From Candidatus Saccharimonadales bacterium (GTDB lineage Bacteria; Patescibacteriota; Saccharimonadia; Saccharimonadales; JANWIN01), in NCBI GenBank assembly GCA_038231155.1, contig JBBRLY010000013.1, positions 196,305 to 260,304 on the forward strand: a stretch of DNA of 64,000 nt, read 5' to 3'. The translations under genes and the position numbers were made by a program. The notes under the pieces are model-generated. The model did no database searches. It saw only the letters and a program-made list of their open reading frames with translations, and was not told the origin of the DNA. Below are positions 10,400 through 14,822 of the stretch, piece after piece (position 1 is the first letter of the stretch; each line of letters opens with the position of its first letter).

Positions 10400-11551
10400 G
10401 TGGGAAATTTAAAGACAAGAAAGAAAAAAATTAAATCCAGTACGCTAGGCAGAAAGCATAAAGCTTTACTTTTTCGCATACTAGGGAAAATTTGGCTTTG
10501 GATTACAAGTCGCAGTTGGTGGCAAAAGATACTTTTAGTAATAATGGCATTTTTGTTGCTTCTTATTGGAGTGATGTATTCGATTGCACAATGGTATATT
10601 TTTAGCCAACGTAATAAACCATATCAATTTGGCGTCACATTCATTCCTAGTTACGCCGAATATTTAGGTGTTGATCCAGATGAAACCTTAAATGCTATTT
10701 TGAATGATTTGGGTGCTAAGCGCGTACGATTAGCAAGTTATTGGGATAAAATTCAGCCGACTCAAAATGGTCCTTATGATTTTAGAGAACTGGATAAAGA
10801 CTTTTCTATGATTCAGGCAGCTGGTGCCAAAGTGACTTTAGCTATTGGACTGCGTCAACCGCGATGGCCAGAATGTCATATGCCCGACTGGGCTATGTCT
10901 CAACCTAAAAGCGTCTGGTATCCTGAGCTTAAACAATTTATGCAAGCTGTCGTGGAGCACTATAAAAATCAGCCAGCTCTGATAAGTTATCAGTTAGAGA
11001 ACGAGTACTTATTAAAAGTCTTTGGTAAGTGTACGGACTTTAGCCGTGATCGACTAATTGATGAATTTAACTTTGTTAAAAGTTTGGATTCAAATCACCC
11101 TATTATTGTCAGCCGTAGCAATAACTGGGTCGGTTTGCCTATTGGACAACCCAGACCTGATGAATTTGGAATATCGGTTTATAAAAGAGTCTGGGATAGA
11201 ACAATTACCAAACGTTACGTTGAATATCCTTATCCAGCCTGGTACTACGGCTTTTACGCAGGAGCTGGCAAATTACTGACTGGTAAAGATTTAATGATAC
11301 ATGAACTTCAAGCCGAACCCTGGATGCCAGATGGAATAGAAATGCCTAAATCTACTACTGCCGAGCAATATCAATCTATGAGCCCGCAACGCCTAAAAGA
11401 CCGTTTTGAATATGCTAGAGCCACTGGTATGCACACTATCGATTTCTGGGGAGTTGAATGGTGGTACTGGCGAAAAGTACACTTTAACGATCCAGAGATC
11501 TGGAATATTGCTAAAACTGAATTTGATAAAGCTAACTCTAGTACTAGATAA
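10400..11551 (+). CDS. membrane-anchored glycoside hydrolase (clan GH-A TIM barrel, cellulase/galactosidase-like)
   Basis: 383 aa with an N-terminal TM anchor, a catalytic-acid-like QLENEY block and an LQAEPW nucleophile-like block. GTG start. Confidence 0.6.
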   Translation: MGNLKTRKKKIKSSTLGRKHKALLFRILGKIWLWITSRSWWQKILLVIMAFLLLLIGVMYSIAQWYIFSQRNKPYQFGVTFIPSYAEYLGVDPDETLNAILNDLGAKRVRLASYWDKIQPTQNGPYDFRELDKDFSMIQAAGAKVTLAIGLRQPRWPECHMPDWAMSQPKSVWYPELKQFMQAVVEHYKNQPALISYQLENEYLLKVFGKCTDFSRDRLIDEFNFVKSLDSNHPIIVSRSNNWVGLPIGQPRPDEFGISVYKRVWDRTITKRYVEYPYPAWYYGFYAGAGKLLTGKDLMIHELQAEPWMPDGIEMPKSTTAEQYQSMSPQRLKDRFEYARATGMHTIDFWGVEWWYWRKVHFNDPEIWNIAKTEFDKANSSTR

Positions 11552-11602
11552 TCTTTTATTACTATTGTCTATACCGATTAGGTTCGTTAAAATAAGGTTA
11601 CC

Positions 11603-12067
11603 GTGAAAAAGAAGCAATCCAACCAGCATAAGTTAATATCTAACAGACGAGCCAGGCATGATTACCAACTTGGTGATAGTTTTACTGTAGGTATTGTTCT
11701 TAGTGGTGCCGAAACTAAAGCATTAAGAATGGGTCACGGCCAACTTCGTGGTGCCTATATAACAATAATAAATGGTGAGCTATGGCTAATAAACGCTACT
11801 ATATCGCCCAGTTCTGGTATCCCAATATCAGAATCAGATCAAACGCGGACTCGTAAATTACTTGCTAAACATCGAGAGATTGAGTCAATGGAACAAGTTA
11901 AAAAGCAGGGAAATACAATTATACCATTAGAAATATTAACTAGTGGAAGGTATATAAAACTTCGAATTGCTACCGGAAGAGGCAAAAAAATGTATGACAA
12001 ACGCCAAATCTTGAAAGCGCGTGATGAACAACGAAGTATTACAAGAGTCCTTAAAAGTCGTAGATAA
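11603..12067 (+). CDS. smpB: SsrA-binding protein
   Basis: 154 aa with NRRARHDYQL, VLSGAETKALR and a basic C-terminal tail. GTG start. Confidence 0.92.
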   Translation: MKKKQSNQHKLISNRRARHDYQLGDSFTVGIVLSGAETKALRMGHGQLRGAYITIINGELWLINATISPSSGIPISESDQTRTRKLLAKHREIESMEQVKKQGNTIIPLEILTSGRYIKLRIATGRGKKMYDKRQILKARDEQRSITRVLKSRR

Positions 12068-12114
12068 GGTTTGCGACTCTTATACATCTTCGTATATAAT
12101 TCGGCAGTCACTAT

Positions 12115-12189
12115 TCCGGAGTAGCTCAATGGTAGAGCAGTGCCCTGTTAAGGCAATGGTTGCCGGTTCGAGTCCGGCCTCCGGAGCCA
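12115..12189 (+). tRNA. tRNA-Asn (GTT), CCA encoded
   Basis: Hand-folded. Acceptor TCCGGAG/CTCCGGA, D arm GCTC-AATGGTA-GAGC, anticodon loop CT-GTT-AA, T arm GCCGG-TTCGAGT-CCGGC, then G-CCA. Confidence 0.9.
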
Positions 12190-12208
12190 AATTAAGCTAT
12201 TGATAAAG

Positions 12209-12262
12209 TTCGAAGAGCGTTCACGACTGCGAGCCATATCGCTTATGCTTTTATGATAAAAT
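12209..12262 (+). repeat. junction repeat C: left module L2 + right module R2
   Basis: TTCGAAGAGCGTTCACGACTGCGAGCCA matches 14174-14201 at 23/28. It is followed by a TAT-CTTAT-GCTTT-TATG promoter-like block. Confidence 0.6.
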
Positions 12263-12268
12263 TTCGTC

Positions 12269-12565
12269 ATGCAAAGTCAGCATAGCAAAACGATACACAT
12301 GTCCGCACTCATATTTTTTATTGGTGCGCCGATATTATATATCATAGGCCTTACAAGTCTATTTCCTTTTAACGATTCGGTATATTCAATAGCTGTTAGT
12401 ACAGAATTGATATTATTTGCAATAGGCATAGTACTTTTTGGGATTGATCACTATAACAATAGTCATTCAATCATCAAAGCCATACTTACTACTGGCTTGT
12501 GGACAGCATTGATCTTAGTAATTACCTTTATAACTTTTTTAATAATAGGTTTTTCAGCCATATAA
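12269..12565 (+). CDS. small integral membrane protein
   Basis: 98 aa with three hydrophobic helices. A -10-like TAAAAT ends 6 nt before the ATG. Confidence 0.55.
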   Translation: MQSQHSKTIHMSALIFFIGAPILYIIGLTSLFPFNDSVYSIAVSTELILFAIGIVLFGIDHYNNSHSIIKAILTTGLWTALILVITFITFLIIGFSAI

Positions 12566-12592
12566 TCACTTTTCAAAAGCTCGAATTGCAAA

Positions 12593-12680
12593 GGTTCTAA
12601 CTTCCATCGCTACGGAGAGCCAAGGTTAGAACCAATATTTACAGAGGCAACGAGACTCTTTTGTCGCTTTGGGATATAAT
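12593..12680 (+). repeat. junction repeat A: left module L1 + right module R1 (contains a 9-bp inverted repeat)
   Basis: GGTTCTAACTTCCATCGCTACGGAGAGCCA matches 13094-13122 at 28/29. The following AGGTTAGAACCAATATTTACAGAGG... matches 14202-14250. GGTTCTAAC (12593-12601) is the inverse of GTTAGAACC (12625-12633). Confidence 0.65.
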
Positions 12681-12686
12681 TTTTGT

Positions 12687-13094
12687 ATGGCAAAAGATCT
12701 TATTGAAAATATAGTTCCGGAGGACTACAAGACCCGAGGTAGTTACACGCCAGCCAAAAAAATTGATATGGGTAAATTTTATCTCATATTTGTATCTGGT
12801 GTACAAGCTCCAAAAGATGACAATCACAAAGTGGTAACTGACGATGTCGAAGAACAAACCAAATTAGTGTTTGAAGATATTTCAAAGGTGCTGCGGCGGG
12901 CTGGTGCGAGTCTTGATGATGTAGTAAAAGCAATCATCTACATCACTGATATGAAAGATTTCGATCAGATTTCCAAAATTAGGGGTGAATACTTCAAGAA
13001 TGCAATGCCAGTTAGTACACTTGTTGAAGTCAACAGGATGACAAGAGTTGGTGCTAAAGTTGAGATTGAAGTAACTGCGGTTGTTGCAAAGTAG
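12687..13094 (+). CDS. ridA: RidA/YjgF/L-PSP family protein
   Basis: Family blocks FVSGVQA, EEQTKLVFEDISKVLRRAGASLDDVVKAIIYITDM and VEIEVTAVV. I moved the start to ATG 12687, which lies 6 nt after TATAAT at 12675-12680. Confidence 0.85.
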   Translation: MAKDLIENIVPEDYKTRGSYTPAKKIDMGKFYLIFVSGVQAPKDDNHKVVTDDVEEQTKLVFEDISKVLRRAGASLDDVVKAIIYITDMKDFDQISKIRGEYFKNAMPVSTLVEVNRMTRVGAKVEIEVTAVVAK

Positions 13095-13153
13095 TTCTAA
13101 CTTCCATCACTACGGAGAGCCATATTGACTTATTAGCTTTATTATGTTAATCT
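13094..13153 (+). repeat. junction repeat B: left module L1 + right module R2
   Basis: GTTCTAACTTCCATCACTACGGAGAGCCA, then TTGACT-N17-TAATCT. The L1 copy begins at the last base of the ridA stop codon. Confidence 0.6.
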
Positions 13154-13159
13154 AATTCA

Positions 13160-13654
13160 ATGGCCTTCCCAGTTGAAGATACTTATATCAGACCTTTGTT
13201 TTATGAAGCCTTAACTGGTGAATTTAAACCTCCATCTGATCCAGAAAAGCGAGTACACACGTTAGGTAAAATTACTATTGCTACATTTACAAAAGGTACC
13301 TTAATAAGGGGTTTTTCGGATGAATGGCACGTTGGGTATGAATATAATCTTTCTTGGGCACCTAAAGTACATTCAAGAGTTATCTGTCTAGAGGATATGG
13401 ACCATCTTAAAACAAATTTATCTCAACTAGTGCTAAACACTGAGTCAGAAGAGTTGACTTTTCAAGATGCTCTTAACAATAGTGAGTCAGAGAGCAGTGG
13501 GATTGTGATAGTTTCAAGTGGGAAAAGGATCGTGGAGCTTCCACTATGGCTTGGTCCTGAACTTGAAATAGCAAAAGAAGCAATTACCAACTCTGCACAA
13601 TCATTTTTCAATCGTCAAAGAGATTTACTCCATTATCAACGCGAACCCTCTTAA
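13160..13654 (+). CDS. hypothetical protein
   Basis: 164-aa ORF whose ATG lies 6 nt after the -10-like TAATCT. No recognisable motif. Confidence 0.55.
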   Translation: MAFPVEDTYIRPLFYEALTGEFKPPSDPEKRVHTLGKITIATFTKGTLIRGFSDEWHVGYEYNLSWAPKVHSRVICLEDMDHLKTNLSQLVLNTESEELTFQDALNNSESESSGIVIVSSGKRIVELPLWLGPELEIAKEAITNSAQSFFNRQRDLLHYQREPS

Positions 13655-13747
13655 AATTGTGGAGTAAGTCCACTGGGTGGGAGTACGAATTTATCTCTGT
13701 TAATTTTTTTACGCATACCAAATTTCGAACTTTGATATTATTTATAT

Positions 13748-14164
13748 ATGCTCAGGAGTTGGAATGGCAGGTCACAAAACCCAATCATTGATGCTTTAAG
13801 AAAGTTTGGTATTAAAACTGATAGTATCAACTTATTAAAATATGAGGGATTAACCCCGGACAGTTTTATCTGGTATTTCAATATTACAAATTCAAAGAAA
13901 TATTCTTCCTATTGCCTATATGCAGAAGACTATGTACCTTCACTTAAACACGTTGAAGTCGCCATGAAGCGGCACCTTCCCCTGTGGAATAATGATGACA
14001 AATATACCCTTGTCCCCGTACAAGAAGCTGAAAAATGGGATATGGCGAGCCCAGTCAAAGCGGCATCAACTTATAACCCTCCCAATAAAAAAGATGAGTT
14101 TATGAAATACGCTGCTAGTTCGGGCATAGATTTTGTCTTTCTGGGTAAATCTACAAAGAATTAA
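13748..14164 (+). CDS. hypothetical protein
   Basis: 138-aa ORF with no recognisable motif. Confidence 0.5.
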   Translation: MLRSWNGRSQNPIIDALRKFGIKTDSINLLKYEGLTPDSFIWYFNITNSKKYSSYCLYAEDYVPSLKHVEVAMKRHLPLWNNDDKYTLVPVQEAEKWDMASPVKAASTYNPPNKKDEFMKYAASSGIDFVFLGKSTKN

Positions 14165-14173
14165 TATTTTTAT

Positions 14174-14250
14174 TTCGCAGACCGTTCACGACTATGAGTC
14201 AAGCTTAGAACCAAAATTTTCAGAGGTAAAGTATCTTTTTTTGCTATAAT
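14174..14250 (+). repeat. junction repeat D: left module L2 + right module R1
   Basis: TTCGCAGACCGTTCACGACTATGAGTCA, then AGCTTAGAACCAAAATTTTCAGAGG...TTGCTATAAT. Confidence 0.6.
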
Positions 14251-14279
14251 TTAGTATTGAATTATAGAGGAAGAACGAT

Positions 14280-14822
14280 ATGTCAGTAATAAGTTTTAAA
14301 ACTGAACTATTCAAGATCAGCTCGTGGACTATTCTGGAGCTACCTAAAAGCGCAAGTGCGAAACTTCCATCTCGAGGCATTGCAATGGTAAGAGGAACCA
14401 TCAATGGTTTTCACTTTCAAACCGCGCTTGAACCGGACGGCAAGGGAAGTCACTGGTTCAATCTCGACAAAACTATGCGCAAAGCATTTAGAGCTAACGC
14501 AGGTGATACGGTTATCCTGAAGATTGAGTCAACAAGAGAATGGCCTGAGCCTAAAGTGCCAGAAGATATAATGAACACTATTGCATCCGATAAGAAGGCG
14601 CACACCCTATGGATGGATATCACACCAATGGCTCGTTGGGAATGGATCCGTTGGATACGAGCAACCAATCGATTGGAAACACGTAAGCGTCGAATAGAAG
14701 TGGCGCGCTCAAAGCTTAAGGCTGGAAGCCGAAGACCGTGTTGTTTTAACAGTAACATGTGCACTGAGCCCTCCGTATCTAAAAATGGAGTACTACTTGA
14801 GCCGACACTATCAAAGGCCTAA
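14280..14822 (+). CDS. DUF1905 + YdeI/OmpD-associated family protein
   Basis: The N-terminal block WTILELPKSASAKLPSRGIAMVRGTINGFHFQTALEPDGKGSHW is DUF1905-like. The C-terminal block WEWIRWIRATNRLETRKRRIEVARSKL is YdeI-like. Confidence 0.72.
   Translation: MSVISFKTELFKISSWTILELPKSASAKLPSRGIAMVRGTINGFHFQTALEPDGKGSHWFNLDKTMRKAFRANAGDTVILKIESTREWPEPKVPEDIMNTIASDKKAHTLWMDITPMARWEWIRWIRATNRLETRKRRIEVARSKLKAGSRRPCCFNSNMCTEPSVSKNGVLLEPTLSKA

What the first reader, a model, noticed from the sequence alone, without database searches (positions are those of the whole stretch)
12209..14250. Four intergenic junctions built from two left and two right modules in all four combinations, flanking small accessory genes next to smpB/tRNA-Asn
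Seen: left module L1 (GTTCTAACTTCCATC(G/A)CTACGGAGAGCCA) occurs at 12593-12622 and 13094-13122, with 1 mismatch. Left module L2 (TTCG.AGA.CGTTCACGACT..GAG.CA) occurs at 12209-12236 and 14174-14201, at 23/28. Right module R1 (AG(G/C)TTAGAACCAA.ATTT.CAGAGG...CTTTT..TG...TATAAT) follows at 12623 and 14202. A looser right module R2 (TAT..CTTAT..GCTTT..TATG..TAA) follows at 12237 and 13123. The junctions are therefore L2|R2, L1|R1, L1|R2 and L2|R1, and the switch always comes right after GAG(C/T)CA. tRNA-Asn, immediately upstream, ends in GGAGCCA. The intervening genes are unrelated to one another: a small membrane protein, RidA, two hypotheticals, then DUF1905/YdeI. Inference: the right modules are promoters and the left modules are 3'-end elements. 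The complete 2x2 mosaic with a fixed breakpoint suggests recombination at a short shared core, producing cassette-like gene shuffling or serial integration beside a tRNA. Convergent reuse of regulatory modules is the alternative.
Basis: partly seen in the sequence, partly recalled or inferred. Interest (0 to 1): 0.62.

Follow-up and report, generated by a model that had tools for sequence, protein, structure and literature searches.

The report
Serine-recombinase cassette array beside tRNA-Asn
The repeated "left" and "right" modules are most likely the two halves of attachment sites for large serine recombinases that insert small gene cassettes one after another at the 3' end of tRNA-Asn in Saccharibacteria, giving an integron-like variable gene array made by a different enzyme.

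Summary
The repeats are real. L1 (28/29), L2 (23/28) and R1 (46 nt, 78%) are far beyond chance; R2 is weak (z=2.4). L occurs nowhere else in the 64 kb.

The window is from a Saccharibacterium. Synteny with 80 other genomes holds up to smpB and tRNA-Asn, then stops at the tRNA 3' end.

L-like 29-mers ending in GAGCCA recur downstream of tRNA-Asn, co-oriented with it:
- in about 22 other Saccharibacteria genomes, up to 12 per locus;
- in 95 metagenome stretches.

In three genomes a large serine recombinase (LSR) gene lies against tRNA-Asn. Its reading frame crosses the junction and ends in the antisense of the tRNA (…WLRRPDSNRRPRS*). Other LSR homologues, one on a circular 8.3-kb element, end instead in tails such as WLPLKDLF…. 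These match the antisense translation of L (window: WLSVVMEVRT).

My reading:
- L is the P arm of attP.
- The tRNA 3' end is the B arm of attB.
- R1 is a P' arm.
- Junctions in the array are P|P' hybrids left by serial integration.

L is 5 nt longer than the matching tRNA segment, as published for LSR attP versus attB half-sites.

No LSR lies in the window, so its cassettes are non-autonomous. The exact crossover position is unresolved. This is a new variant of tRNA-anchored islands.

The parts
11603..12067 (+). smpB, the last gene of the conserved left flank
   Evidence: Pfam SmpB, E=2.7e-42. Syntenic in 81 loci.
12115..12189 (+). tRNA-Asn(GTT). Its 3' end (GTTCGAGTCCGGCCTCCGGAGCCA) is the inferred B arm of attB.
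   Evidence: ARAGORN and Rfam tRNA at 69.8 bits. LSR reading frames in L004, L036 and L059 run into the antisense of this segment.
12190..12236 (+). L2a with its 18-nt lead-in: a solo P arm abutting the tRNA, with no cargo. Antisense reading: WLAVVNALRTLSIA*.
12237..12268 (+). R2a: junction-proximal sequence carrying an extended -10 box (TGaTAAAAT, 12254-12262) that ends 6 nt before the ATG
   Evidence: Sequence reading. Only weak similarity to R2b.
12269..12565 (+). Cassette cargo: small membrane protein of 98 aa
   Evidence: No homologue in 80 related loci.
12594..12622 (+). L1a: A-type P arm. Antisense reading: WLSVAMEVRT…
12593..12633 (.). Dyad GGTTCTAAC-N23-GTTAGAACC spanning L1a|R1a, which looks like a native attP-type site
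   Evidence: Folds at -16.1 kcal/mol, z=-4.0. The same L+R1 pairing occurs in L099, L125/L159, L139, L146 and L158, and as tRNA|R1 … L|terminator in L088/L138.
12623..12686 (+). R1a: P' arm (AGGTTAGAACCAATATTT), decayed terminator hairpin, then TATAAT at 12675-12680
12687..13094 (+). Cassette cargo: RidA / L-PSP
   Evidence: Pfam, E=8e-29.
13094..13122 (+). L1b: A-type P arm that starts in the RidA stop codon. Antisense reading: WLSVVMEVRT…
13123..13159 (+). R2b: promoter (TTGACT 13125-13130, 17-nt spacer, TGtTAATCT ending at 13153), 6 nt before the ATG
   Evidence: Sequence reading. Similar junction-proximal promoters occur in L109, L025, L031 and L052.
13160..14164 (+). Cassette cargo: two hypothetical genes (164 aa and 138 aa) with no L between them
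14173..14201 (+). L2b: decayed P arm. It ends GAGTCA, which gives a stop codon in the antisense frame.
14202..14279 (+). R1b: P' arm (AGCTTAGAACCAAAATTT), decayed hairpin, TATAAT at 14245-14250, and a Shine-Dalgarno-like AGAGGAAGA
14280..14822 (+). DUF1905/OmdA gene. No L follows it. Homologues lie in the variable regions of L031, L043 and L053.

Best explanation
**What the modules are.** The array is a stack of small integrated gene cassettes bounded by half-sites of large-serine-recombinase (LSR) attachment sites.
- The 3' end of tRNA-Asn is the left (B) arm of the chromosomal attB.
- Each L module is the left (P) arm of an element's attP.
- R1 is a right (P') arm.

**How integration works (inferred).**
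- An element integrates by attP x attB exchange inside or at the edge of the shared core that ends in GAGCCA.
- This leaves tRNA|P' at the tRNA side and P|(whatever lay downstream) at the far side.
- Repeated events push older cassettes outward. Internal junctions are therefore P arms of one cassette joined to P' arms of the next, which is the L x R mosaic.

**The recombinase reading frame.**
- In complete elements the recombinase gene sits next to P' on the opposite strand, and its reading frame crosses the site.
- In the free (attP) state its last 15-35 codons are encoded by the P arm. That is why L shows codon-like conservation on the minus strand.
- After integration the frame ends in the antisense of the tRNA instead.

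**This window.** Its four cassettes carry their own promoters and no recombinase. They are non-autonomous. They could be moved or reshuffled only by an LSR encoded elsewhere, or by homologous exchange between the repeated arms.

**Shown:**
- the repeat family and its restriction to this locus;
- LSR genes spanning the junction in relatives;
- a circular LSR element whose attP resembles L;
- cassette content that varies between related arrays.

**Inferred:**
- that these particular cassettes arrived by LSR recombination;
- where the crossover lies;
- whether the cassettes are still mobile.
For: 1. **Locus restriction.** L occurs four times here and nowhere else in 64 kb. In 80 smpB loci, 51 of 54 L hits lie on the smpB strand downstream of tRNA-Asn. 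They come from about 22 genomes, with 12 copies in L025, each following 1-3 small ORFs.
2. **Hypervariability.** GT2, GH and smpB are syntenic in 63-81 loci. Six of the genes after the tRNA have no homologue in any locus, and 551 downstream ORFs fall into 409 clusters.
3. **LSR genes at the junction.** LSR genes (Resolvase + Recombinase + Zn_ribbon_recom) abut tRNA-Asn in L004, L036 and L059. Their frames cross the junction and end …WLRRPDSNRRPRS* or …WLGRPDSNRQPRS*.
4. **Two kinds of tail.** Of 120 homologues, most end W-L/G-x3-DSN (tRNA antisense). A minority end in other tails after the same W: WLPLKDLFIN, WLPLIDTFRTY, WLALVDYVGTY. These resemble the antisense translation of L: WLSVVMEVRT, WLPLVDELRN, WLTVADELRT, WLTTIEEVITAIKQD.
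5. **A circular element.** P0083, which has such an alternative tail, lies on a circular 8.3-kb element: two contigs from two samples are exact circular permutations. Its P arm, TTGATGAATAAGTCCTTTAGGGGGAGCCA, is 21/29 identical to C-type L.
6. **L117.** An LSR-like ORF reads straight through an A-type L: …INAK|WLSVVKDVRTIITVQ*.
7. **Codon-like variation.** In B-type L, variation concentrates at third codon positions of the minus-strand frame (entropy 0.74 against 0.31 and 0.39).
8. **Junction equivalence.**
   - In L038 the same sequence follows the tRNA CCA and three L CCAs.
   - A block of about 570 nt shared by L023 and L049 starts exactly after GAGCCA, with a different left partner in each.
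9. **Geometry.**
   - GTTC…CCA spans 29 nt in L and 24 nt in the tRNA.
   - The native A-type + R1 site is a dyad.
   - Its outer motif lies 5 nt (left) and 4 nt (right) further out than in the tRNA|terminator site of L088.
   - This fits the published 5-bp shift of the zinc-ribbon-domain motif between attP and attB (PMC3783163).
10. **Independent data.** 159 L copies occur in 95 metagenome stretches. The only tRNA there is tRNA-Asn, upstream of and co-oriented with L in 12 of 14 loci.
11. **Cassette turnover.** L091 and L130 share a cassette at 96% identity up to L plus its hairpin, then differ. The next cassette of L130 lies 6.2 kb further along in L091.
Against: - No LSR gene lies in the 64-kb window or within 10 kb of most arrays. 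Only one LSR fragment was found in 421 kb of metagenome arrays.
- LSRs are reported not to recombine attP with attL (PMC3783163 abstract), so how a second cassette enters next to a first is unexplained.
- The crossover position is inconsistent between lines of evidence. Dyad symmetry points to about 10 nt before the CCA end. The mosaic junctions in the window, L038 and L088, and the need to keep the tRNA intact, point to within GAGCCA.
- Right-arm symmetry is not evident for the attP of L117 or of the circular element.
- Positions -9 to -7 of the window's L copies (GGA, TGC, TAT) do not match its own tRNA (CCG).
- The first unit, an 18-nt lead-in plus L2a directly after the tRNA, is not a product expected from a simple attP x attB event.
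- Some shared blocks end at terminators or promoters rather than at L, so other recombination also shapes the region.
- No strain variant of this very array was found.
Confidence: 0.75

Rival explanations
1. Fossil array. The modules are relics of past LSR-element integrations whose recombinase genes were later deleted. Nothing moves today, and the similarity among L copies reflects recent common descent or gene conversion rather than function.
For: - No LSR lies in the window or in most arrays.
- The R1 hairpins in the window are decayed.
- L2b carries GAGTCA, and L037 holds a clearly eroded L.
- Truncated LSR C-terminal fragments are abundant in candidate phyla radiation (CPR) genomes.
Against: - The 29-nt core is almost invariant at the DNA level across genomes whose SmpB proteins are only about 65% identical, and across 10 or more cassettes of one contig. 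The adjoining tail-coding sequence varies freely.
- Cassette order differs between related arrays.
- A clean loss of a 1.5-kb recombinase gene from nearly every cassette, while about 15-45 nt of P' is kept, is hard to explain by decay alone.
Confidence: 0.3
2. Homologous recombination only. L and R are repeated untranslated elements, and cassette shuffling results from RecA-type exchange between them with no site-specific enzyme.
For: - Repeats of 80-100 nt at 90-100% identity flank cassettes in the large metagenome arrays, and their breakpoints cannot be resolved inside the repeat.
- Some block ends lie at terminators or promoters.
Against: - In the window the repeats are only 29-46 nt, and L types differ by about 35%.
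- The breakpoint between the tRNA and L partners falls at a 6-nt core.
- Homologous exchange does not explain the LSR frames crossing the site, the link to tRNA-Asn, or the strict single orientation.
Confidence: 0.1
3. Displaced tRNA 3' fragments left by tyrosine-integrase islands, the classical mode of tRNA-gene integration.
For: - L aligns loosely with the tRNA-Asn 3' region.
- True tRNA-3' copies do occur in some arrays, at L049 about 12060-12090 and in L038.
- Serial integration at tRNA genes is a known pattern (bioRxiv 10.1101/2020.12.28.424599).
Against: - L is 5 nt longer than the tRNA segment and only about 50% identical to it.
- L types are conserved between genomes independently of the host tRNA.
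- No tyrosine integrase appears among the recurrent families in 124 downstream ORFs.
- The recombinases actually found at the junction are LSRs.
Confidence: 0.05
4. Integron or attC-like array driven by an IntI-type recombinase acting on folded single-stranded sites.
For: - The array is unidirectional and made of small cassettes, each ending in a conserved site.
- GTTCTAAC and GTTAGAAC resemble the inverse-core and core motifs of integron sites (own recollection, not tested).
Against: - No IntI-like gene lies within 10 kb on either side (Pfam lists).
- L is not palindromic, and only one of the four junctions folds.
- The cassettes have their own promoters.
Confidence: 0.03
5. Plain regulatory modules: a terminator and promoter consensus reused by convergence.
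For: R2b and several other R sequences are good promoters, and many R sequences are terminators.
Against: - L has no hairpin or T-run.
- L is absent from the other ~60 kb of the window.
- In every other genome examined L is tied to one locus.
Confidence: 0.03

Closest known systems
Large serine recombinases / phage serine integrases (A118-LI, Bxb1, phiC31) and their attP/attB sites
   Same: - Same domain set (Resolvase, Recombinase, zinc ribbon).
- Short att sites with little attP-attB identity.
- The distal motif lies about 5 bp further out in the P-type arm than in the B-type arm.
- One homologue sits on a circular element in its attP state.
   Different: - The target is the 3' end of a tRNA gene.
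- The recombinase reading frame crosses the site, so its C-terminal tail changes on integration.
- Sites occur as arrays of up to 12 or more, bounding cassettes of 0.4-2 kb that lack the enzyme.
- Serial entry next to an attL-type site conflicts with the known strict attP x attB pairing.
Tycheposons and other tRNA-anchored genomic islands (Prochlorococcus; bioRxiv 10.1101/2020.12.28.424599)
   Same: - Successive integrations at one tRNA push older elements into an island.
- Repeats separate the elements.
- Degenerate remnants and cargo-only units are present.
   Different: - There, 910 of 937 elements use tyrosine recombinases, and the repeats are partial tRNA copies.
- Those elements are larger and often carry replication genes.
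- Here the repeats are P arms that differ from the tRNA, the enzyme is an LSR, and the units are one- or two-gene cassettes.
Integrons (IntI, attI, attC cassette arrays)
   Same: It works in a similar way: a fixed primary site, a one-directional stack of small accessory-gene cassettes each ending in a recombination site, and hybrid junctions between neighbours.
   Different: - No tyrosine IntI is present.
- The sites are not folded attC palindromes.
- The cassettes carry their own promoters.
- The primary site is a tRNA gene end.
- This is not a member of the integron family.
SSV-type archaeal integrases whose gene spans attP (own knowledge, not checked here)
   Same: The recombinase reading frame overlaps the attachment site, the target is a tRNA gene, and integration alters the gene.
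   Different: Those are tyrosine recombinases, and integration splits the gene into two fragments. Here only the last 13-35 codons are swapped.
Non-autonomous att-flanked elements (CIMEs/IMEs) built up by accretion in streptococci (review PMC5704250, listed but not read here; details from own knowledge)
   Same: Integrated units flanked by att sites lack their own recombinase, lie in tandem with other units, and are thought to be mobilisable in trans.
   Different: They belong to different recombinase families, hosts and scale, and they do not form long arrays of single-gene cassettes.

Membership tests
LSR attachment-site system (attP/attB/attL/attR) | A large serine recombinase gene (Resolvase + Recombinase + zinc ribbon) linked to the site | tested here: inconclusive
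   Met in the relatives L004, L036 and L059 and in circular element L184/L185. Not met in the window itself: tblastn finds no LSR in 64 kb.
LSR attachment-site system (attP/attB/attL/attR) | An imperfect dyad around a central crossover dinucleotide | tested here: inconclusive
   The A-type L + R1 site has a 9-11 bp inverted repeat (z=-4.0). No clear dyad is seen in the attP of L117 or of the circular element. The dyad centre (-10) disagrees with the junction breakpoints, which fall within GAGCCA.
LSR attachment-site system (attP/attB/attL/attR) | The distal (zinc-ribbon-domain) motif lies 5 bp closer to the centre in attB than in attP | tested here: met
   GTTC…CCA spans 24 nt in the tRNA and 29 nt in L. 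TTCGA at -23 and TAGAA at +1 in the L088 attB-like site compare with TTCTA at -28 and TAGAA at +5 in L+R1. The rule is taken from PMC3783163.
LSR attachment-site system (attP/attB/attL/attR) | Recombination products observed (excised circle, empty site) | not testable with these tools
   Only indirect evidence: a circular homologous element and cassette presence/absence between related arrays. No reads were available for this sample.
Integron | An intI tyrosine recombinase next to attI | tested here: not met
   No such family appears in the Pfam listings for 10 kb on either side or among recurrent families in 124 downstream ORFs.
Integron | attC sites: 57-141 nt imperfect palindromes at each cassette end | tested here: not met
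   L is 29 nt and not self-complementary. Three of the four junctions do not fold better than shuffles.
tRNA-gene islands made by tyrosine integrases | Flanking repeats are copies of the tRNA 3' segment | tested here: not met
   L differs from the tRNA 3' end in length (+5 nt) and in about half of its positions.
tRNA-gene islands made by tyrosine integrases | A hypervariable island that begins at the tRNA 3' end | tested here: met
Genome-wide terminator/promoter or REP-type repeats | Dispersed copies next to unrelated core genes | tested here: not met
   No copy outside the array in 64 kb. In other genomes the copies are confined to the tRNA-Asn locus. Whole genomes were not available.

The most novel reading that the evidence does not exclude
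Saccharibacteria, and probably other candidate phyla radiation (CPR) lineages, may run a serine-recombinase counterpart of the integron. In this reading a trans-acting LSR captures, stacks and reshuffles promoter-bearing one- or two-gene cassettes at the 3' end of tRNA-Asn. Each cassette would need only about 30 nt of P arm and about 15-25 nt of P' arm. The recombinase's own C-terminal tail would switch between an attP-encoded and a tRNA-antisense-encoded form, acting as a built-in marker of integration state.
Probability: 0.3. Interest if true: 0.82.

Novelty: new variant of a known kind. Interest (0 to 1): 0.66.

Why it matters
- **Source of gene flux.** Saccharibacteria and other CPR bacteria have tiny genomes, few recognisable mobile elements and no genetic tools for most lineages. 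Where their accessory genes come from is poorly understood. A conserved, recombinase-defined landing pad at tRNA-Asn that collects small accessory genes (RidA, NUDIX, HAD, GNAT, APH, Fic, DUF1905) would explain a main route of gene flux in these organisms.
- **Genetic tools.** It would also supply ready-made attB/attP pairs and enzymes for engineering them.
- **Mechanism.** Arrays of P|P' junctions challenge the strict attP x attB rule of serine integrases. A reading frame whose tail depends on integration state is a testable regulatory idea.
- **Annotation.** The many 'hypothetical' 130-240-residue ORFs next to tRNAs in CPR genomes can be re-read as recombinase remnants.

Tried and rejected
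- **Known RNA families.** Rfam searches of the window region and of five related loci found only tRNA and, in some genomes, a group I intron. No family covers L or R.
- **L as a tRNA or tRNA-like gene.** ARAGORN finds only tRNA-Asn. L cannot be threaded onto a T-arm plus acceptor of normal length.
- **L as a terminator.** The consensus scan finds none, and the folds are no better than shuffles.
- **L as the start of minus-strand genes.** The frame has no start codon and stops after 8-60 codons.
- **Phage origin.** A-type and B-type patterns give 0 hits in 2.9 million viral contigs.
- **Clean cassette boundaries.**
  - L039/L037 share a cassette, but the L in L037 is eroded and the left boundary falls at the promoter.
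  - The L023/L049 right boundary falls at a terminator, not at an L.
- **Locating the crossover by symmetry.** The answers conflict: about -10 by symmetry, but within GAGCCA by junction breakpoints.
- **Full-length recombinases with A-type tails.** The search returned only C-terminal fragments.
- **attR of the L004 and L036 elements.** Not found within the 10 kb available.
- **Literature.** No paper in the library describes this locus in Saccharibacteria.
Full report
**1. The observation**

The region reads as described.

| Module pair | Positions | Similarity | z against shuffles |
|---|---|---|---|
| L1 | 12594-12622 / 13094-13122 | 28/29 | 17.8 |
| L2 | 12209-12236 / 14174-14201 | 23/28 | 11.7 |
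| R1 | from 12623 / from 14202 | 46 nt at 78% | 9.7 |
| R2 | from 12237 / from 13123 | loose, needs three gaps | 2.4 |

- For R2, 3.5% of shuffles score as well, and the repeat finder did not report it. The mosaic is therefore real for L1, L2 and R1 and soft for R2.
- All four L copies belong to one 29-nt family that ends in GAG(C/T)CA. A weight-matrix scan finds no other copy in the 64 kb.
- The gene calls are confirmed: smpB, tRNA-Asn, a 98-residue membrane protein, RidA, two hypotheticals, and DUF1905/OmdA.

**2. Context in other genomes**

- The SmpB protein retrieves 80 loci, nearly all Saccharibacteria. The closest is 74-76% identical.
- The glycosyltransferase, glycoside hydrolase and smpB genes are syntenic in 63-81 loci, and smpB is followed by tRNA-Asn.
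- In five genomes ARAGORN missed the tRNA because it carries a group I intron.
- Downstream of the tRNA, synteny stops. Six window genes have no homologue in any locus, and 551 downstream ORFs form 409 clusters.
- A matrix built from the four L copies, then iterated, finds 54 further copies in these loci. Of these, 51 lie on the smpB strand downstream of the tRNA, in about 22 genomes.
- L025 has twelve copies, each after one to three small ORFs.
- L falls into subfamilies shared by distant genomes:
  - A: GTTCTAACTTCCATCACTACGGAGAGCCA (the window's L1);
  - B: GTTATAACTTCCTCTATCGTGGTGAGCCA;
  - C: TTGCGAAGTACGTCCACTAGGGGGAGCCA;
  - D: GTTCGCAATTCGTCTGCTACCGTGAGCCA.
- R sequences also form families that combine with different L types:
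  - R1;
  - an AGCATAAGC type;
  - simple terminators;
  - a conserved terminator that also follows tRNA-Asn directly in several genomes, and so looks like the native tRNA terminator.

**3. The recombinase**

- Clustering the downstream ORFs exposed three ORFs of 356-518 residues on the opposite strand, directly next to tRNA-Asn, in L004, L036 and L059.
  - The L004 and L036 products carry Resolvase, Recombinase and zinc-ribbon domains.
  - The shorter L059 product carries Recombinase and zinc-ribbon domains only.
- These proteins are only 24-28% identical to one another. Yet all three reading frames cross the junction and finish in the antisense of the tRNA: …N|WLRRPDSNRRPRS*, …I|WLRRPDSNRRPRS*, …S|WLGRPDSNRQPRS*. 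TGG-CTC is the antisense of GAGCCA.
- A search with the L036 protein gave 750 relatives. Among the 120 listed (Saccharibacteria, other Patescibacteria, Chloroflexota), most end W-(L/G)-x3-D-S-N-x2-P, the antisense of a tRNA T-loop and acceptor end.
- A minority continue after the same W with other tails: WLPLKDLFIN…, WLPLIDTFRTY…, WLRELDQIRTF…, WLALVDYVGTY….
- Translating every L on the minus strand from TGG-CTC gives the same kind of peptide:
  - WLSVVMEVRT and WLSVAMEVRT for the window's L1 copies;
  - WLAVVNALRT for L2a;
  - WLPLVDELRN (C type), WLTVADELRTAS (D type) and WLTTIEEVITAIKQD (B type).
- In the B family, which was selected by DNA and not by translation, variation is concentrated at third codon positions of that frame.

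**4. Direct links between L and the recombinase**

- P0083 is a full-length LSR with the tail WLPLKDLFINKK….
  - It is carried by two contigs from two samples that are exact circular permutations of one about 8.3-kb molecule.
  - It is therefore in the attP state.
  - Read in L orientation, its site is TTGATGAATAAGTCCTTTAGGGGGAGCCA|AGCAGAACGACTG. This is 21/29 identical to C-type L, and the following AGAAC motif resembles the P' arms R1 and the L059 junction.
- In metagenome stretch L117, an LSR-like ORF runs straight through an A-type L: …AFASINAK|WLSVVKDVRTIITVQ*.
  - Relatives of that C-terminal segment form a second family across the candidate phyla radiation (CPR).
  - They show the same two kinds of ending: tRNA antisense, or WLRIVDDVRT…IP(D/E)L.
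  - All retrieved members are C-terminal fragments, some truncated by insertion sequences.

**5. Reading of the modules**

- L is the P arm of attP.
- The tRNA 3' end is the B arm of attB.
- R1 is a P' arm.
- The conserved terminator after the tRNA is the native B' arm.
- Single-cassette loci fit this scheme. L088/L138 have tRNA|R1 … cargo … A-type L|terminator. L034 has tRNA|terminator-type R … A-type L|native terminator.
- A-type L followed by R1 recurs in at least six independent stretches and forms a dyad, GGTTCTAAC-N23-GTTAGAACC. This is also the window junction at 12593-12633.
- The segment GTTC…CCA is 24 nt in the tRNA and 29 nt in L.
- In L088 the outer motifs of the tRNA|terminator site lie 5 nt (left) and 4 nt (right) closer to the centre than in L|R1.
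- This matches the published finding that the zinc-ribbon-domain motif occupies half-site positions 16-24 in attP and 11-19 in attB (PMC3783163).

**6. Junction tests**

- In L038 the sequence after the tRNA CCA is the same as after three B-type L copies, while the sequence before GAGCCA differs.
- L023 and L049 share a block of about 570 nt at 88% identity that begins exactly after GAGCCA. A B-type L precedes it in one genome and a tRNA-like 3' copy in the other.
- In the large metagenome arrays, L091 and L130 share one cassette at 96% identity up to L plus its terminator hairpin, then diverge. The next cassette of L130 lies 6.2 kb further along in L091.
- Other boundaries fall at promoters or terminators. 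Site-specific exchange is not the only process at work.

**7. Independent data**

- An A-type pattern found 95 metagenome stretches, and the matrix finds 159 L copies in them.
- One 27-kb contig holds at least 13.
- In the 30 stretches scanned, the only tRNA found is tRNA-Asn, upstream of and co-oriented with L in 12 of 14 cases.
- Viral contigs have none.
- In the large arrays the 29-nt core is nearly invariant at the DNA level, while the adjoining tail-coding part varies in all codon positions. The hairpin after L shows compensatory changes. This pattern suggests constraint on a protein-binding site and on a hairpin, not simple decay.

**8. What remains unsettled**

- The window has no LSR, and only one LSR fragment occurs in 421 kb of metagenome arrays. 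The cassettes are non-autonomous at best.
- Serine integrases are reported not to pair attP with attL, so the route by which cassettes stack is unknown.
- The crossover is not located.
  - The dyad centres about 10 nt before the CCA end.
  - Junction breakpoints and tRNA integrity place it within GAGCCA.
  - Positions -9 to -7 of L sometimes match the host tRNA (L100, L101, L110, L135) and sometimes do not (window, L088, L119).
- The 47-nt unit directly after the window's tRNA is a P arm with no cargo and is not a simple product.

**9. Comparison with what is known**

- The enzyme and site logic are those of large serine recombinases.
- The island-building logic is that of tRNA-anchored islands such as tycheposons. 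There, successive integrations push older elements outward and leave partial tRNAs and remnants. However, 910 of those 937 elements use tyrosine recombinases.
- The array works like an integron but fails both integron membership tests: no IntI and no attC.
- Three literature searches found no description of this locus in Saccharibacteria.
- I rate it a new variant of a known kind.

**10. Verdict**

- Its regulatory reading of L is replaced.
- Confidence that L and R1 are LSR attachment-site arms and that the array arose by serial integration at tRNA-Asn: about 0.75.
- Confidence that the cassettes are still mobile through a recombinase acting in trans: about 0.3.

Noticed in passing
window 12254-12271, 12675-12689, 13148-13162, 13736-13750: Four cassette genes have a -10 box that ends exactly 6 nt before the ATG, with no Shine-Dalgarno sequence. 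This suggests leaderless transcripts. The DUF1905 gene instead has a roughly 30-nt leader with AGAGGAAGA.
   Followed up: partly
L031 10573-11200; also L023, L014, L016, L032: In five Saccharibacteria genomes tRNA-Asn is interrupted in the anticodon loop by a group I intron (Rfam 69-101 bits). In L031 the intron carries an ORF with an HNH-like CxxCH motif. ARAGORN misses these tRNAs.
   Followed up: partly
L038 10660-10890, 11610-11740, 12455-12590: Repeated units of about 200 nt contain an inverted pseudo-copy of the tRNA-Asn 3' part (TGGCTCGCAAGACTCGCTCAAATTGGCAACC). They also contain a direct copy with about 49 nt inserted in the T-loop (GGTTGCCAGTTCG…CTGGCCTCCCGAGCCA). No Rfam family matches them.
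   Followed up: partly
L015 about 11075-11125, L023 about 14750-14800, L049 about 12550-12600: A 45-nt hairpin-like element (TTGAAGGCTCGGCAGTGCTGTAATGCACAGGTTCTGAACCTTC plus a T-run) is identical in three genomes, while the flanking gene is only about 88% identical. It may be a small RNA or a regulatory hairpin.
   Followed up: no
L091, L093, L111 (contig Ga0315274_10002551, 27 kb); L130/L162; L143: Very long arrays occur in sediment metagenomes. Units of L plus GCAAACCAAGCG-hairpin recur every 0.6-4 kb, and most cargo genes lie on the strand opposite to L, the reverse of the window's arrangement. The host organism was not identified.
   Followed up: partly
P0121-P0219; loci L178-L183: ORFs of 100-240 residues annotated as hypothetical are common next to tRNAs in CPR genomes. 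They are C-terminal remnants of serine recombinases, and one was truncated by an insertion sequence (L182).
   Followed up: partly
L094 1809-1837 and L140 1787-1815: An A-type L lies about 1.8 kb upstream of tRNA-Asn in the opposite orientation. These are the two exceptions to the co-orientation rule.
   Followed up: no
L001 / L002 (Logan SRR19962015 contigs): In the public assembly that holds proteins identical to the window's, the contig breaks exactly at the tRNA-Asn 3' end, with a 30-nt overlap at 12160-12189. This fits a graph branch at the tRNA but is expected for any conserved tRNA.
   Followed up: no
L022, L028, L032, L040 (about 10530-11850): In some genomes a roughly 425-residue gene lies between smpB and tRNA-Asn. 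The tRNA is therefore 1.5-2.5 kb further from smpB than in the window.
   Followed up: no
L184/L185 (circular 8.3-kb element): The circular recombinase-bearing element carries an N6/N4 DNA methyltransferase and a ResIII helicase-like gene (a restriction-modification-like cargo), plus a small helix-turn-helix (HTH) gene.
   Followed up: no
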